From assembly GCA_024229515.1 (NCBI GenBank), contig JAAESI010000010.1, forward strand, positions 1-64,000: a DNA stretch of 64,000 nt, read 5' to 3'. The position numbers and the translations under genes are program-made. This document shows, in pieces, positions 46,858 to 52,515 of this stretch. This DNA comes from Pseudomonadota bacterium (GTDB taxonomy: Bacteria; Myxococcota_A; UBA796; UBA9615). The notes under the pieces were generated by a model, which searched no databases, was not told where the DNA came from, and saw only the letters and a program-made list of their open reading frames with translations. The number at the start of each line of letters is the position of its first letter. Position 1 is the stretch's first letter.

Positions 46858-47289
46858 ATGGCAGAGACCGCCACCTTTCATTACGACGTCGATGCTCGCT
46901 CCGTAGGGTTCGTGATCGACGAAGAGCTCTACTCGCTGGACGCCATCTACGGCGCCGCCTACCTGTTCGTCGATCGCTGCTGGCTGTTCCTCGATCGGCC
47001 GGCCGACAAGCAGGTCCAGGTCCGGCTGCGCAGCAAAGAGGCCGAACCGGCCGGAGGCACGCTGGATGCGCTCGCGGGCGAGTTCGCCAACGAGCTCCTG
47101 AACCAGGTGCTCCGCCTGCGGATCGGCGACTCGACCCGGTCGCTGCGTGAGTACACGCTGGCCCGCGCCTTCTTCGGCGACGACGATGGCGAACGTCCCA
47201 ACATCGACGACCTGCTCGCCGAGCTCGACGCCGAAGAGCTGGCCGACGACCCGCTGGAGATTCAGGTCCCCTGGGACACCGGCTCGTGA
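46858..47289 (+). CDS. hxsD: His-Xaa-Ser system protein HxsD-like
   Basis: 143 aa; FHYDVDARSVGFVIDEELYSLDAIYGAAYLFVDRCWL and ELLNQVLRLR...SLRE (resembles the LLNDYxLRE signature used to name the HxsD family). Confidence 0.5.
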   Translation: MAETATFHYDVDARSVGFVIDEELYSLDAIYGAAYLFVDRCWLFLDRPADKQVQVRLRSKEAEPAGGTLDALAGEFANELLNQVLRLRIGDSTRSLREYTLARAFFGDDDGERPNIDDLLAELDAEELADDPLEIQVPWDTGS

Positions 47290-47501
47290 GCGTGCTCCAG
47301 CTGCACCGCTCGCTCTACTCCGCCGACGCGATCCAGGCCGCGGCGGCCGCCTACGCCGAGTTCGCCGACGCGATCACCGTGACCGAATCCGAGGTCGAAT
47401 ACTCCGTCACCTTCACCGCCCCCGATCCCGACGTCCCCGAACTGCTGGACGCGTTCGCCAACCACGTGCTCTTCGAGACGGCCGCGGCGAGGACCGCGTG
47501 A
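47286..47501 (+). CDS. Small HxsD-like paralogue (71 aa)
   Basis: LQLHRSLYSADAIQAAAAAYAEFADAITV parallels the N-terminal half of the preceding ORF; GTGA overlaps on both sides. Confidence 0.4.
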   Translation: MSVLQLHRSLYSADAIQAAAAAYAEFADAITVTESEVEYSVTFTAPDPDVPELLDAFANHVLFETAAARTA

Positions 47502-50488: not shown

Positions 50489-51397
50489 ATGCGGCGGCTC
50501 GAGCTGCACCTGACCTACACCTGCCCCGAGCGCTGCGCGTTCTGCTCCGAAGCGCACCGCATGAGCCGCTTCAAAGCGTTCCCCGTGACCTTCGGCCGCG
50601 TCGCCTCCGTGCTGCGAACTCACGCCTCACGCGGGGTCCGGGCGCTGCACATCACGGGCGGCGAACCAACCATCCACCCCCGCTTCCTCGACACCCTGAA
50701 GCTGGCCCGGAAGCTGGGCATGCGCACATCCGTGGGGACCATCGGCACGATGCTCCAGCGGCCGGCGTTTGCCGCCGAGGTGCTGCCGTTCCTGGACGAG
50801 GCGCTGTTCTCCCTCCACGGCCCCACCGCCGAGTTGCACGACGAGCTCGCGGGGCGGCCCGGCAGCTTCGACCAGGTGACCGCCGCGATCCGGACCTGCC
50901 GCTCGCTCGACCCCGAGTTCGGGGCGTTCGTGAACACCGTGCTGTGCCGCCGCAACCTCGATGCCCTCCCCGACACGCTGCGGCTGGCCGACTCGCTCGG
51001 CGCCTCCCTCATCATCGTCAGCAACACCACCCCCGAGGGCGACGGCTACGACCGGTTCGACGAGCTCGCCCCGCGACTGGACGAACTCACGGCCGCCATG
51101 GCGGCGCTGCCGACGGACGAGCTCAAAGCGACGCTGCGGATCTTCGGCGTGCCGATGTGCCTGCTGGGGGAGCACGCGATGCTCAGCAACGACATGCACT
51201 GGGACCCCCGGGTCACCGTCGAGTGGGCGTCGAAGCCGGGCAAGGTCGTGTTCGACGACTTCTTCAACTGGAACCCCGGCCGCAAGCGCGTGCACGTCGA
51301 GGCCTGCGCCTCCTGCTCCCGCAAGGGGCTGTGCCAGGGGGTGTGGGACCGGTACGCCGAGTTGTGGCCGGTGGACGCCCTGCAGGCGAAGCCGTGA
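50489..51397 (+). CDS. Third radical SAM protein in the Hxs locus (paralogue of the 32971 and 34720 rSAMs)
   Basis: MRRLELHLTYTCPERCAFC, GGEPTIHP, SLHGPTAELHDELAGRPGSFDQVTAAI, C-terminal CASCSRKGLCQGVWD; an alternative GTG start at 50414 overlaps hxsC stop. Confidence 0.7.
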   Translation: MRRLELHLTYTCPERCAFCSEAHRMSRFKAFPVTFGRVASVLRTHASRGVRALHITGGEPTIHPRFLDTLKLARKLGMRTSVGTIGTMLQRPAFAAEVLPFLDEALFSLHGPTAELHDELAGRPGSFDQVTAAIRTCRSLDPEFGAFVNTVLCRRNLDALPDTLRLADSLGASLIIVSNTTPEGDGYDRFDELAPRLDELTAAMAALPTDELKATLRIFGVPMCLLGEHAMLSNDMHWDPRVTVEWASKPGKVVFDDFFNWNPGRKRVHVEACASCSRKGLCQGVWDRYAELWPVDALQAKP

Positions 51398-52515
51398 GCC
51401 TCACCACGCTGGCCACGCCCTGCGCCCTCGTCGACCGGGATCGGGTGGACGCCAACACCGCCGCGATGGCAGCCCGGGCGGGGAAGCGAGGGGTCGCGCT
51501 GCGGCCTCACGTCAAGACGCACAAGTGCGCCGAGGCGGCCGCGTTGCAGGTGAGGGGGCACGACGGGGGCATCACCGCCTCGACCCTGGACGGCGCGATC
51601 TGGTTCGCCCAACGAGGGTTCGACGACGTGACCCTCGCGGTGCCGCTGGCGCCGGTGCGGGCCGAGGCAGCCGTGGTCGCAAGCGAAGGCATGAAGCGGC
51701 TGGGGCTGCTCATCGACTCAGACGCGGCCGTCGACGCGATCGAAGCCGCCGCCCGAGCCCGGGGGCGCATCGTTCCGGTGCAGTTGAAGGTCGACTGCGG
51801 CTACGGCCGCGCGGGGGTGAATCCCGAGGGAGACGACGGGCCGCGCCTGGCCCGGCGGCTCGCCGACAGCCCCCACATCGACTTCGAGGGCGTGCTCGCC
51901 CATGCCGGCCACAGCTACGCCTCCACGACCGTCGATGAGGTGGTGGCGATCGCGGAATCCGAGCGAGCCGTCACGGTCGGGTTCGCCGACCGCCTCCGCG
52001 CCGACGGCCTGGAGGTCCGCACCGTCAGCGTGGGCTCGACGCCGACCGCCGTGCACGGCCGCGACTGGACCGGAGTGACCGAGCTCCGCCCCGGCAACTA
52101 CGCCTTCTTCGACGCCTTCCAGGCAGGCATCGGCAGCTGCTCGACGGACGCCTGCGCGATGACGGTGCTGACGTCGGTAATCGGCGTGCACCCCGGCCGC
52201 AACCAGGTGCTGACGGACGCCGGCGCGCTGGGCCTGAGCAAGGACGCCGGCCCCCGCCACGTCGACCCCGACTGCGGGTACGGAGTCGTGCTCGATCTCG
52301 ACCGCCGTCCCCTCCCCCTCCGGGTCGTCGGTCTGAGCCAGGAGCACGGCGAACTCTCGGTGCTCGACCCCGTGGTCTTCGACACCCTGAAGGTGGGCTC
52401 GATGGTGCAGATCATCCCGAACCACAGCTGCCTCGCCGCGGCGCTCTACTCGCAGTACGTGGTCGTGGCGGGAGGCGAGATCGTCGACCGCTGGGAGCGC
52501 AGCCCCCGCCGCTAG
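51394..52515 (+). CDS. PLP-dependent D-serine dehydratase-like / D-threonine aldolase (DSD1, alanine-racemase fold)
   Basis: LRPHVKTHKC PLP-lysine motif, alanine-racemase-like N-domain, HSYAS; GTGA overlap with preceding rSAM. Confidence 0.7.
   Translation: MSLTTLATPCALVDRDRVDANTAAMAARAGKRGVALRPHVKTHKCAEAAALQVRGHDGGITASTLDGAIWFAQRGFDDVTLAVPLAPVRAEAAVVASEGMKRLGLLIDSDAAVDAIEAAARARGRIVPVQLKVDCGYGRAGVNPEGDDGPRLARRLADSPHIDFEGVLAHAGHSYASTTVDEVVAIAESERAVTVGFADRLRADGLEVRTVSVGSTPTAVHGRDWTGVTELRPGNYAFFDAFQAGIGSCSTDACAMTVLTSVIGVHPGRNQVLTDAGALGLSKDAGPRHVDPDCGYGVVLDLDRRPLPLRVVGLSQEHGELSVLDPVVFDTLKVGSMVQIIPNHSCLAAALYSQYVVVAGGEIVDRWERSPRR

What the first reader, a model, noticed from the sequence alone, without database searches (positions are those of the whole stretch)
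46858..52515. Extended His-Xaa-Ser (Hxs) peptide-maturation locus with a third radical SAM enzyme and a PLP enzyme
A 91-aa ORF carries a perfect (SHG)x8 His-Gly-Ser repeat core after a Lys-rich leader. It is embedded between two radical SAM genes (490 aa with RRE/PqqD-like N-terminus and SPASM cysteines; 334 aa) and preceded by two small HxsD-like ORFs. This matches the poorly characterized HxsA/B/C/D system, whose chemistry is not known to me. This copy is extended in the same translationally coupled operon (GTGA/ATGA overlaps) by a third radical SAM paralogue and a DSD1-type PLP enzyme (LRPHVKTHK). It also has a duplicated HxsD. The extra enzymes suggest additional tailoring, for example action on Ser/D-Ser residues of the repeat, or a variant pathway.
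Basis: partly seen in the sequence, partly recalled or inferred. Interest (0 to 1): 0.8.

Follow-up and report, generated by a model that had tools for sequence, protein, structure and literature searches.

The report
HxsA4-type His-Xaa-Ser peptide maturation cassette
This is a real operon that uses three radical-SAM enzymes to modify a small peptide made of Ser-His-Gly repeats; it belongs to an unstudied, mostly myxobacterial branch of the His-Xaa-Ser family, the extra radical-SAM enzyme is a standard part of that branch, and the PLP enzyme is probably only a neighbouring gene.

Summary
A 91-aa ORF (48993-49268) encodes a Lys-rich leader plus (SHG)x9-QW. It sits in a co-directional gene string with four GTGA start/stop overlaps. 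Curated NCBIfam models pass their cut-offs for HxsD, an HxsD-like protein, HxsB and HxsA4.

- The 334-aa radical-SAM (rSAM) enzyme is not HxsC. It is a small, distinct family with no auxiliary-cluster cysteines.
- The "third" rSAM is the HxsC/HxsC4-like one, but it scores far below cut-off.
- Both rSAMs are core parts of this subtype, not add-ons. In 80 related genome loci, mostly Myxococcota MAGs, the set [Tat-signal ORF0, HxsD, HxsD-like, HxsB, HxsA4, rSAM334, rSAM3] recurs. Both rSAMs are present in 45 of 55 loci with enough downstream sequence.
- The precursor is (SHG)n-QW with n = 3-58.
- The DSD1 PLP enzyme is next to the cassette in only four closely related contigs and is translationally coupled in two. 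It is absent from 41 of 42 other informative loci.

The canonical HXS system was shown in 2026 to be an antiphage system. This subtype's chemistry and role are untested. Verdict: new variant of a known kind, moderate interest.

The parts
46318..46845 (+). ORF0: 175-aa protein with a twin-arginine (Tat) signal (SRREVLKFG).
46858..47289 (+). HxsD, 143 aa, with a conserved acidic C-terminal tail ending in VPW.
   Evidence: TIGR03976 scores 54.1 bits against a cut-off of 50. Present in 66 of 70 loci. The tail residues L119 to W139 are at least 95% conserved in 68 orthologues.
47286..47501 (+). HxsD-like small protein, 71 aa. Its GTG start overlaps the hxsD stop codon.
   Evidence: NF038315 scores 58.7 bits against a cut-off of 41. 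A matching ORF lies directly upstream of HxsB in 74 of 78 loci. It is related to HxsD only at profile level; pairwise BLASTP is not significant.
47498..48967 (+). HxsB, 489 aa: an rSAM maturase with an RRE-like N-terminal domain and a C-terminal auxiliary-cluster (SPASM-type) domain.
   Evidence: TIGR03978 scores 493 bits against a cut-off of 370. It is 100% identical to an NCBI MAG protein already named HxsB. The closest solved structure is CteB (5wgg): profile E 3e-31 and Foldseek E 2e-19 over the full length. The model has a three-strand/three-helix N-terminal domain at residues 20-82.
48993..49268 (+). HxsA4 precursor peptide, 91 aa: leader with an LPGLSRRADQFLQ motif, then core 49179-49259 = (SHG)x9, then QW and stop.
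   Evidence: NF038313 scores 59.5 bits against a cut-off of 55, while canonical HxsA (TIGR03979) scores only 24 against 121.65. The same leader motif plus (SHG)n-QW, with n = 3-58, is found in the window and 60 of the 80 loci. Codons vary synonymously between repeat units.
49413..50417 (+). rSAM334: a 334-aa rSAM enzyme with only the CX3CX2C cluster cysteines. It is not HxsC.
   Evidence: Best NCBIfam hit is PapB at 95 bits against a cut-off of 340. Orthologues at 41-76% identity are present in 49 of 55 loci. Only C19, C23 and C26 are conserved in 52 orthologues. The family is small: 27 clusters at E <= 1e-30 among 1.84 billion representatives.
50414..51397 (+). rSAM3: a 327-aa HxsC/HxsC4-like rSAM enzyme with one auxiliary cluster (C249, C298, C301, C307). 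Its GTG start overlaps the preceding stop codon.
   Evidence: HxsC4 (NF038332) scores 87 bits against 500, and HxsC (TIGR03977) scores 55.8 against 267.9. Orthologues at 53-78% identity are present in 45 of 55 loci. Seven Cys are invariant, and the conserved residues P17, W18, P21 and G23 support the upstream GTG start.
51394..52515 (+). DSD1-type fold-III PLP enzyme, 373 aa. It is translationally coupled to rSAM3 in this genome but is not a conserved member of the cassette.
   Evidence: PF01168 and PF14031 hit. The closest solved structures are D-threo-3-hydroxyaspartate dehydratase 3wqc (E 3e-64) and chicken D-serine dehydratase 3anu, with the PLP lysine motif RPHVKTHK and the metal motif NHSC aligned. 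It is adjacent to Hxs only in L083, L084 and L001, and is absent from 41 of 42 informative loci.
53822..55267 (-). rSAM4: a 481-aa HxsC/HxsC4-like rSAM paralogue on the opposite strand. It belongs to a separate conserved block (membrane protein, rSAM4, LTD/MopE protein) and is listed as context, not as a shown member of the cassette.
   Evidence: HxsC4 scores 86 bits and HxsC 73 bits, both below cut-off. It is 28% identical to rSAM3 over 319 aa, E 1e-24. The block is syntenic in L083, L084 and L086, and rSAM4 orthologues (48-54% identity) lie near the cassette in L012, L014, L052 and L072.

Best explanation
**What it is (shown).** The locus is an HxsA4-type member of the His-Xaa-Ser (Hxs) family. 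It is a conserved seven-gene cassette:
1. ORF0, a Tat-signal protein
2. HxsD
3. an HxsD-like protein
4. HxsB
5. the HxsA4 precursor
6. rSAM334, an rSAM enzyme without an auxiliary cluster
7. rSAM3, an HxsC-like rSAM enzyme with one auxiliary cluster

The substrate is a ribosomal peptide with a conserved leader and a homopolymeric (Ser-His-Gly)n core ending in Gln-Trp.

**How it most likely works (inferred).**
- HxsB binds the leader motif (LPxLx[R/K]xPxxFLQxxE) through its RRE-like N-terminal domain.
- Together with the two other rSAM enzymes it modifies every His-Gly-Ser unit one after another in the cytoplasm. The likely chemistry is radical cross-linking or rearrangement involving the His and Ser side chains.
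- The two HxsD-type proteins serve as partner or adaptor subunits of the two smaller rSAM enzymes. This follows the HxsC-HxsD complex reported for the E. coli system.
- The modified repeat array is then delivered to, or works with, the Tat-exported ORF0 protein in the cell envelope. There it acts as a multivalent array, possibly as a barrier against phage as in the E. coli HXS system.

**The PLP enzyme.** The DSD1 gene is a lineage-specific neighbour. In this genome and one close relative it has come to lie in the same transcription unit. It most likely acts on a free D-amino acid, not on the peptide.
For: **Family membership.** HxsB, HxsD, the HxsD-like protein and HxsA4 all exceed curated NCBIfam cut-offs.

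**The cassette is conserved.** This was measured on 80 genome loci retrieved with an HxsB alignment.

| Component | Present in |
|---|---|
| ORF0 | 61 of 70 |
| HxsD | 66 of 70 |
| HxsD-like ORF | 74 of 78 |
| rSAM334 | 49 of 55 |
| rSAM3 | 45 of 55 |
| (SHG)n-QW precursor with shared leader motif | window + 60 of 80 loci |

The four loci that lack the HxsD-like ORF also lack all the other components.

**Peptide-level selection.** Codons vary synonymously between repeat units, and repeat number ranges from 3 to 58.

**HxsB architecture.** The model aligns over its full length with CteB, an RRE-rSAM-SPASM enzyme.

**Cysteine patterns.** rSAM334 has no auxiliary cluster. rSAM3 has four extra invariant Cys.

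**ORF0 is linked to HxsA4.** Its twin arginines are conserved. The pair [ORF0 paralogue + second HxsA4] is duplicated in tandem in L005 and L020.

**Published analogy.** In the E. coli system the rSAM enzymes and HxsD are required for HxsA maturation. A +8 Da modification maps to SHRSS, HxsC binds HxsD, every HxS repeat is needed, and the effector acts in the periplasm (PMC13128918). rSAM-made His-C2 to Lys-C-beta cross-links provide a chemical precedent (PMC11499958).

**DSD1 is a neighbour, not a member.**
- Searches show it beside the cassette only in close relatives.
- Homologues above 50% identity are very common in unrelated phyla.
- Its PLP-lysine and metal-binding motifs are intact and typical of free-amino-acid dehydratases.
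Against: - No experiment exists on any HxsA4-type system. The chemistry, the order of enzyme action, export and biological role are all inferred.
- HxsA4 has no signal peptide and no peptidoglycan-binding domain, unlike E. coli HxsA. The analogy to the antiphage effector is therefore weak.
- PADLOC gives only generic viperin-like rSAM hits.
- No curated HxsC or HxsC4 model reaches its cut-off for any rSAM enzyme here.
- The ORF0 fold gave no functional clue.
- About 60% of related cassettes carry a fourth, HxsC4-like rSAM enzyme that this locus lacks. This copy may therefore make a different or less elaborated product.
- The DSD1 start overlaps the rSAM3 stop in two genomes. Co-expression, and hence some functional link, cannot be excluded.
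- The linked rSAM pair 10.5 kb upstream may also take part, so the system's boundaries are not settled.
Confidence: 0.7

Rival explanations
1. One reading: a canonical HxsA/B/C/D system that this copy has extended with a third rSAM paralogue and a DSD1 PLP enzyme. These would add tailoring steps, for example on Ser or D-Ser residues of the repeat.
For: The DSD1 start overlaps the rSAM3 stop (GTGA at 51394). The same coupling occurs in L083, whose DSD1 is 79% identical. DSD1 lies within 3 kb of the cassette in L084 and L001. In about 60% of other loci, the position after rSAM3 is occupied by an accessory enzyme, an HxsC4-like rSAM.
Against: - Both extra rSAM enzymes are core parts of the subtype: 45 of 55 loci have both.
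- DSD1 is present in only 1 of 42 informative genome loci.
- In L084 and L001, 2-3 opposite-strand genes separate DSD1 from the cassette.
- In L085 (70% identity) it lies between FabH-like and ArsC genes. In L086 (62% identity) no Hxs gene lies in the roughly 2 kb of contig upstream of it, yet it keeps its right-hand neighbours, the membrane protein, rSAM4 and the LTD protein.
- From established knowledge: fold-type III PLP dehydratases and aldolases need a free alpha-amino group to form the external aldimine. Internal Ser residues of a peptide are therefore not plausible substrates.
Confidence: 0.08
2. The cassette is as described, but its product is a metal-binding peptide rather than an antiphage effector. 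It would be a metallophore or periplasmic metallochaperone that uses the modified poly-His array to bind Cu, Ni or Zn.
For: The core is one-third histidine, with 3-58 units. One partner is Tat-exported. Neighbouring or linked large secreted proteins carry MopE-type putative metal-binding motifs. Precedent exists for copper-binding ribosomal peptides with His cross-links (PMC10206099, title and abstract only).
Against: No metal transporter, TonB receptor or metal regulator was seen in the cassette or among its conserved neighbours. The only experimentally studied Hxs system acts against phage. A huge variation in repeat number is unusual for a defined metallophore.
Confidence: 0.15
3. HxsA4 is matured into a cross-linked small subunit or peptide-derived cofactor of the ORF0 protein. 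The two are then exported together by Tat. This would resemble the rSAM-cross-linked gamma subunit of quinohemoprotein amine dehydrogenase.
For: ORF0 and HxsA4 are duplicated as a pair in L005 and L020. The Tat signal, a pathway that exports folded or assembled proteins, is conserved. ORF0 has a conserved His-x-Cys (H93, C95) and conserved H159 and R162 that could hold a ligand. HxsB gives a sub-threshold hit to the quinohemoprotein amine dehydrogenase maturase (82 bits).
Against: A cofactor would need one motif, not 3-58 repeats. ORF0 has no recognisable enzyme fold. No dehydrogenase or redox partner is conserved nearby.
Confidence: 0.1

Closest known systems
Canonical HXS antiphage system (HxsD-HxsB-HxsC-HxsA) of E. 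coli, Klebsiella and other Pseudomonadota (Li et al., Nat Commun 2026, PMC13128918; families first defined by Haft & Basu 2011, cited from that paper's reference list)
   Same: HxsB and HxsD orthologues pass curated cut-offs. The substrate carries tandem His-Xaa-Ser units. More than one rSAM enzyme plus a small HxsD-type partner is present. There is a link to the cell envelope, through the HxsA signal peptide there and the Tat-signal ORF0 here.
   Different: - Here the substrate is a 91-aa leader peptide with a homopolymeric (SHG)9-QW core and no signal peptide or peptidoglycan-binding domain. E. coli HxsA is about 214 aa with five heterogeneous HxS repeats.
- No protein here meets the HxsC model.
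- There are two non-HxsB rSAM enzymes, two HxsD-type proteins and a separate Tat-signal protein.
- Gene order is ORF0-D-D'-B-A4-rSAM-rSAM instead of D-B-C-A.
- The hosts are mainly Myxococcota, whereas 99.7% of canonical systems were reported in Pseudomonadota.
NCBIfam HxsA4 subtype models (NF038313 HxsA4, NF038315 HxsD-like protein, NF038332 'rare' HxsC4)
   Same: HxsA4 and the HxsD-like protein pass their cut-offs. NCBI's annotation already names the window's HxsB.
   Different: No protein in the window reaches the HxsC4 cut-off; the best score is 87 of 500 bits. The HxsC4-like fourth rSAM enzyme found in 26 of 42 related cassettes scores 125-165 bits in the 11 that were scanned and is absent from this operon. 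rSAM334, rSAM3 and ORF0 have no curated family. No paper in the searchable library mentions HxsA4 or HxsC4.
RRE-rSAM-SPASM peptide maturases (CteB for SCIFF thioethers, SuiB, PapB) and three-residue cyclophane synthases acting on His motifs (HtkB, HaaB; PMC11499958)
   Same: HxsB shares the fold and domain order of CteB. Its substrate is a leader peptide with a short repeated three-residue motif that starts at an aromatic or imidazole residue.
   Different: Sequence identity to CteB is only about 18%. The cross-link type is unknown. The +8 Da change (+C, -4H) reported for E. coli HxsA is not a simple -2 Da cross-link. Three different rSAM enzymes act here instead of one.
Repeat-core rSAM RiPPs such as the poly-cyclopropylglycine TVG peptide (PMC9062424)
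   Same: The precursor core is a tandem three-residue repeat, presumably modified unit by unit by rSAM chemistry.
   Different: The enzymes are unrelated. That paper places HxsB and HxsC in separate sequence clusters and leaves them uncharacterised.
DSD1 family: D-serine dehydratase / D-threo-3-hydroxyaspartate dehydratase (PDB 3anu, 3wqc)
   Same: The 373-aa ORF has both Pfam domains, the PLP-lysine motif and the H-x-C metal site. It aligns end to end with 3wqc at E 3e-64.
   Different: Nothing distinguishes it from the many free-standing homologues, apart from its 4-nt overlap with rSAM3 in this genome and in L083.

Membership tests
Canonical His-Xaa-Ser (HXS) system | HxsB rSAM maturase (TIGR03978) | tested here: met
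   493.2 bits against a cut-off of 370, covering 3-466 of 466 profile positions.
Canonical His-Xaa-Ser (HXS) system | HxsC rSAM maturase (TIGR03977) | tested here: not met
   rSAM3 scores 55.8 bits against a cut-off of 267.9. For rSAM334, HxsC is not among the 25 best families. rSAM4 scores 72.7 bits. The best HxsC score in the whole window is 96 bits, for 34720-35757.
Canonical His-Xaa-Ser (HXS) system | HxsD small protein (TIGR03976) | tested here: met
   54.1 bits against a cut-off of 50. Orthologues in related loci carry the Pfam HxsD family PF27806.
Canonical His-Xaa-Ser (HXS) system | HxsA repeat protein (TIGR03979) with signal peptide and peptidoglycan-binding domain | tested here: not met
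   24 bits against a cut-off of 121.65. The protein is only 91 aa, has no hydrophobic N-terminus by direct reading, and has no domain hit apart from a spurious collagen match.
Canonical His-Xaa-Ser (HXS) system | Gene order HxsD-HxsB-HxsC-HxsA (99.6% of systems; PMC13128918) | tested here: not met
   The order here is ORF0, HxsD, HxsD-like, HxsB, HxsA4, rSAM334, rSAM3.
Canonical His-Xaa-Ser (HXS) system | Blocks phage DNA entry; +8 Da modification on an SHxSS motif | not testable with these tools
   This needs phage challenge experiments and mass spectrometry.
HxsA4 subtype (NCBIfam) | HxsA4 precursor (NF038313) | tested here: met
   59.5 bits against a cut-off of 55. The L081 orthologue scores 108 bits.
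HxsA4 subtype (NCBIfam) | HxsD-like protein (NF038315) | tested here: met
   58.7 bits against a cut-off of 41.
HxsA4 subtype (NCBIfam) | HxsC4 rSAM protein (NF038332) | tested here: not met
   rSAM3 scores 87.4 bits and rSAM4 scores 86.3 bits against a cut-off of 500. Full-length but sub-threshold HxsC4-like genes (125-165 bits) follow rSAM3 in other loci, but not in the window.
RRE-dependent rSAM/SPASM RiPP maturases | N-terminal RiPP recognition element (PqqD-like winged helix) | tested here: inconclusive
   Pfam PqqD does not hit. However, the AlphaFold model shows three strands and three helices at residues 20-82 with pLDDT 83-95, and Foldseek aligns the full length to CteB and SuiB.
RRE-dependent rSAM/SPASM RiPP maturases | SPASM/twitch auxiliary Fe-S cysteines | tested here: inconclusive
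   The motif C420-x2-C423-x5-C429 plus C453 and C203 is invariant in 25 sequences. The full seven-Cys SPASM pattern is not present, and Pfam SPASM does not hit.
DSD1 / D-serine dehydratase-like PLP enzymes | Ala_racemase_N and D-ser_dehydrat domains, PLP lysine, H-x-C metal site | tested here: met
   PF01168 scores 85.9 bits and PF14031 scores 76.3 bits. RPHVKTHK and PNHSC align with RPHVKTSK and PNHAC of 3wqc.

The most novel reading that the evidence does not exclude
HxsA4-type cassettes would be a distinct envelope system found across many Myxococcota. A variable-length poly(Ser-His-Gly) peptide of 3-58 units is rebuilt unit by unit in the cytoplasm by three to six different rSAM enzymes, giving a new kind of modified peptide polymer. 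It then reaches the periplasm by riding on a dedicated Tat-signal partner (ORF0). There it works with large Ig-repeat surface proteins as a phage barrier, a metal-binding array or a cell-surface array. Because the core is a perfect homopolymer, it would also be the cleanest substrate for solving the unresolved +8 Da Hxs chemistry.
Probability: 0.2. Interest if true: 0.75.

Novelty: new variant of a known kind. Interest (0 to 1): 0.45.

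Why it matters
The chemistry of the Hxs family is still unsolved. The 2026 E. coli study could localise a +8 Da change but could not reconstitute it.

This subtype offers a short, soluble-looking leader peptide with a perfectly repetitive core. That makes the modification easier to read by mass spectrometry or NMR.

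The subtype has a different enzyme set: two uncharacterised rSAM families, two HxsD-type partners and a Tat-signal partner. It occurs in dozens of Myxococcota species that the published census, built on canonical HxsA, did not count.

If the subtype also protects against phage, the HXS defence principle would extend beyond Pseudomonadota. If not, the same maturation machinery serves another envelope function.

For annotation, the result warns against two errors: calling the 334-aa enzyme HxsC, and counting the DSD1 gene as a tailoring enzyme.

Tried and rejected
- **Exact-sequence look-up of the window's HxsB.** No contig is on record. Context was therefore taken from homologues.
- **Promoter and terminator scan of 46000-52800.** No promoter-like site was found. 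The only terminator-like sites are on the minus strand and are no more frequent than in shuffled sequence.
- **Possible attenuator between hxsA4 and rSAM334.** The fold is no more stable than shuffled sequences, z = 0.25.
- **PADLOC.** Only generic viperin-like rSAM similarity was found, with no defence-system assignment.
- **Literature.** Nothing was found on HxsA4, HxsC4 or SHG-repeat strings. Haft & Basu 2011 is not held in the library.
- **The 334-aa enzyme as HxsC.** Considered and rejected.
- **The two downstream rSAM enzymes as recent paralogues.** Considered and rejected.
- **The leader's SRR...FLQ as a Tat motif.** Considered and rejected. The RR is not conserved across precursors and no hydrophobic region follows.
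- **L060, L064, L065 and L070 as canonical HxsB-HxsC loci.** Their partner is in fact HxsC4-like at about 165 bits and also below cut-off.
- **Rfam and tRNA scans of the window.** Only an unrelated tRNA-Thr was found.

Full report
**1. Gene model and check of the observation**

The window has about 70% G+C. Between 46318 and 52515, eight co-directional ORFs lie on the + strand.

| Gene | Coordinates | Size |
|---|---|---|
| ORF0 | 46318-46845 | 175 aa |
| HxsD | 46858-47289 | 143 aa |
| HxsD-like | 47286-47501 | 71 aa |
| HxsB | 47498-48967 | 489 aa |
| HxsA4 precursor | 48993-49268 | 91 aa |
| rSAM334 | 49413-50417 | 334 aa |
| rSAM3 | 50414-51397 | 327 aa |
| DSD1-type PLP enzyme | 51394-52515 | 373 aa |

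- GTGA start/stop overlaps occur at 47286, 47498, 50414 and 51394. There is no ATGA overlap.
- The precursor reads MAFDKKKKKKLPGLSRRADQFLQ...AQHC(SHG)9QW. That is nine SHG units rather than eight.
- The units differ by synonymous codons, and DNA-level matches between units are only 72-82%. The repeat is therefore kept at the protein level and is not a recent slippage product.
- Chance expectation for such a run is about 3e-24.

**2. Family assignments**

NCBIfam scores:

| Protein | Best model | Bits | Cut-off | Result |
|---|---|---|---|---|
| HxsB | TIGR03978 | 493 | 370 | pass |
| HxsD | TIGR03976 | 54.1 | 50 | pass |
| 71-aa ORF | NF038315 "HxsD-like protein" | 58.7 | 41 | pass |
| Precursor | NF038313 "HxsA4" | 59.5 | 55 | pass |
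| Precursor | TIGR03979 (canonical HxsA) | 24 | 121.65 | fail |
| rSAM334 | PapB | 95 | 340 | fail |
| rSAM3 | HxsC4 | 87 | 500 | fail |
| rSAM3 | HxsC | 55.8 | 267.9 | fail |

- For rSAM334, HxsC is not among its 25 best families.
- A further rSAM enzyme on the minus strand (53822-55267) is also HxsC/HxsC4-like and below cut-off.
- rSAM334 and rSAM3 share only the rSAM core motif. rSAM3 and the minus-strand enzyme are true paralogues: 28% identity, E 1e-24.
- The PLP enzyme has both DSD1 Pfam domains. It aligns end to end with D-threo-3-hydroxyaspartate dehydratase and chicken D-serine dehydratase, with the PLP lysine and H-x-C metal site intact.
- The window's HxsB is identical to a protein that NCBI already names HxsB in a "Proteobacteria bacterium" MAG.

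**3. What is known about the family**

A 2026 paper (PMC13128918) shows that the canonical four-gene system (HxsD-HxsB-HxsC-HxsA) of E. coli is an antiphage system.

- HxsA carries a signal peptide, five HxS repeats and a peptidoglycan-binding domain.
- It is processed, acquires a +8 Da modification on an SHRSS motif, reaches the periplasm and blocks phage DNA entry.
- HxsC binds HxsD, and every repeat is required.
- The exact chemistry is unresolved.
- That study found 99.7% of systems in Pseudomonadota, with the order D-B-C-A in 99.6%.
- No paper in the searchable library mentions HxsA4, HxsC4 or SHG-repeat strings.

**4. Neighbourhood comparison**

An alignment of HxsB homologues retrieved 80 loci from species-representative genomes. 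Nearly all are MAGs labelled Myxococcota, Deltaproteobacteria, Polyangiaceae or Sandaracinaceae. Some labels are clearly unreliable as deposited.

tblastn of the window's proteins against these loci shows one coherent cassette.

| Component | Present in | Sequence required in locus |
|---|---|---|
| ORF0 | 61 of 70 | at least 1.5 kb upstream |
| HxsD | 66 of 70 | at least 1.5 kb upstream |
| HxsD-like ORF directly before HxsB | 74 of 78 | at least 450 nt upstream |
| rSAM334 | 49 of 55 | at least 3.2 kb downstream |
| rSAM3 | 45 of 55 | at least 3.2 kb downstream |

- Four loci (L060, L064, L065, L070) lack the HxsD-like ORF and also lack every other component. There HxsB is followed directly by an HxsC4-like enzyme.
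- A precursor of the same design is found in the window and in 60 of the 80 loci. The design is a leader with LPxLx[R/K]xPxxFLQxxE...DPxN...HC, then (SHG)n, always ending in QW. The number n runs from 3 to 58, with a median of 15.

**5. Properties of the conserved proteins**

- Across 52 orthologues, rSAM334 keeps only the three rSAM-cluster cysteines.
- Across 49 orthologues, rSAM3 keeps these plus four more invariant cysteines, enough for one auxiliary cluster.
- ORF0 keeps its twin arginines.
- HxsD has a conserved acidic C-terminal tail ending in VPW (all).
- The rSAM334 family is small: 27 clusters at E <= 1e-30 among 1.84 billion representatives.
- The HxsB model (pLDDT 83) has an N-terminal three-strand/three-helix domain. 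It aligns over its full length with CteB, then with anSME, ChlB, TigE and SuiB. This supports an RRE-rSAM-auxiliary-cluster architecture, although Pfam PqqD and SPASM models do not hit.
- In L005 and L020, a second Tat-bearing ORF0 paralogue and a second HxsA4 gene are inserted together between HxsB and rSAM334. This argues that ORF0 and HxsA4 work as a pair.

**6. The PLP enzyme**

- Among 42 loci that have rSAM3 and at least 1.3 kb beyond it, DSD1 occurs once (L001). A fourth, HxsC4-like rSAM enzyme follows directly in 26 of them. The eleven that were scanned score 125-165 bits over the full profile.
- A DSD1-centred search and context look-ups give this picture:

| Locus | DSD1 identity | Context |
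|---|---|---|
| L083 | 79% | Same layout as the window, including the 4-nt overlap |
| L084 | 75% | Separated from rSAM3 by 2 opposite-strand genes (a UPPS-like prenyltransferase and a roughly 300-aa protein) |
| L001 | 71% | Separated by the same 2 genes plus an rSAM gene |
| L085 | 70% | Between FabH-like and ArsC genes |
| L086 | 62% | No Hxs gene in the roughly 2 kb of contig upstream; keeps its right-hand neighbours (membrane protein, rSAM4, LTD/MopE protein) |

- Homologues above 50% identity are abundant in Acidobacteriota and other phyla.
- From established knowledge, enzymes of this fold need a free alpha-amino group. Peptide-internal Ser is therefore an unlikely substrate.
- Conclusion: DSD1 is a lineage-specific syntenic neighbour. 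In two genomes it abuts rSAM3 and is probably co-transcribed. It is not a recurrent tailoring enzyme, and I put a real role in the pathway at about 8%.

**7. Wider linkage**

This was found while following up the neighbourhood comparison.

- An rSAM pair in the window (32983-34716 and 34720-35757) has orthologues within 10 kb upstream of the cassette in 26-27 of 50 loci. In 10 of these it is immediately adjacent and on the same strand.
- In at least 25 loci, a roughly 770-aa lipoprotein-like protein with Ig-like repeats ends a few bases before ORF0. The window's LTD/MopE protein (55162-58188, minus strand) is a distant relative of it.
- The functional unit may therefore be larger than seven genes, and it has further extracytoplasmic components. 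In the window these parts are dispersed.

**8. Mechanism**

- *Shown:* family membership of four genes, conservation of the seven-gene set, peptide-level conservation of the repeat, the cysteine patterns and the Tat motif.
- *Inferred:*
  - Leader recognition by the HxsB N-terminal domain.
  - Unit-by-unit radical modification of the His and Ser side chains by three enzymes.
  - Pairing of the two HxsD-type proteins with the two smaller rSAM enzymes, by analogy with the HxsC-HxsD complex.
  - Transfer to the envelope with the help of ORF0.
  - A multivalent function there, possibly antiphage.
- The wide range of repeat numbers fits a multivalent array better than a single cofactor.
- Metal binding, or a role as a cross-linked subunit of ORF0, remain possible.

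**9. Novelty and score**

- The subtype is recognised in NCBI's annotation models but is undescribed in the literature I could search.
- It fails two defining features of the canonical system (HxsC and HxsA), differs in gene order and adds components.
- I rate it a new variant of a known kind. Interest is moderate (0.45).

Noticed in passing
window 31937-35757 (+): 31937-32878, 32983-34716, 34720-35757: This is a partial rSAM-like ORF followed by an rSAM pair (577 aa, HxsC4-like N-terminus; 345 aa, HxsC model 96 bits, the best HxsC score in the window but below cut-off). Orthologues of the pair (51-82% identity) lie within 10 kb upstream of the HxsA4 cassette in 26-27 of 50 loci, and directly adjacent in 10. 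The pair may belong to the same system; in the window it is 10.5 kb away.
   Followed up: partly
window 52512-58188 (-): This is a convergent block of three genes: a membrane protein (436 aa, weak BPSS1780/DUF975-like hits, stop overlapping the DSD1 stop), the HxsC-like rSAM4 (481 aa), and a 1008-aa LTD plus MopE-motif protein. The block is syntenic next to DSD1 in L083, L084 and L086. The LTD protein is a distant relative (26% identity over about 380 aa) of a roughly 770-aa lipoprotein-like Ig-repeat protein that sits immediately upstream of ORF0 in at least 25 other loci.
   Followed up: partly
window 39259-46137 (-): A giant 2292-aa ORF rich in Lys, Glu and Ala has no Pfam hit. The region shows strongly negative AT skew (-0.2 to -0.35). 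A syntenic gene of more than 2233 aa lies upstream of the cassette in L083.
   Followed up: no
L005 11544-13278; L020 4604-5800; L055 4839-5592; L042, L050, L056, L080: Some genomes carry two HxsA4 genes, each preceded by its own Tat-signal ORF0 paralogue. Others have very long cores of 42-58 SHG units, with occasional SHA units. In L055 the precursor lies after the two rSAM genes instead of before them.
   Followed up: partly
L001/L065 (same MAG, CAYFOA01) and L035/L060 (same MAG, CAYXGP01): Single genomes hold both an HxsA4-type cassette and a second locus where HxsB (54-58% identity) is followed directly by an HxsC4-like rSAM enzyme (about 165 bits, cut-off 500). No HxsD, ORF0 or SHG peptide was detected there.
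   Followed up: partly
L001 4855-7403 (-); L084 4539-6087 (-); L082 15195-19261 (-); also L014 and L026: A recurring opposite-strand block lies beside some cassettes. It has a roughly 300-aa protein without a family, a UPPS-like cis-prenyltransferase (PF01255) and one or two rSAM genes. It sits between rSAM3 and DSD1 in L001 and L084.
   Followed up: no
L061 (Thermoanaerobaculia MAG) 11158-11701; L041 (Oligoflexia MAG): The cassette also occurs outside Myxococcota, going by record labels. The L061 precursor has mixed SHG/SHA units and ends in SHFSF instead of QW, and rSAM3 was not detected there.
   Followed up: no
L081 14991-16367 (+); also L010 and L045: A 458-aa cyanophycinase/Peptidase_S51-like gene follows the HxsC4-like fourth rSAM gene in three loci. 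It is a candidate leader peptidase or accessory enzyme for those cassettes and has no counterpart in the window.
   Followed up: no
window 12169-12243 (+): tRNA-Thr (CGT). It is the only Rfam or ARAGORN hit in the window and is unrelated to the finding.
   Followed up: yes
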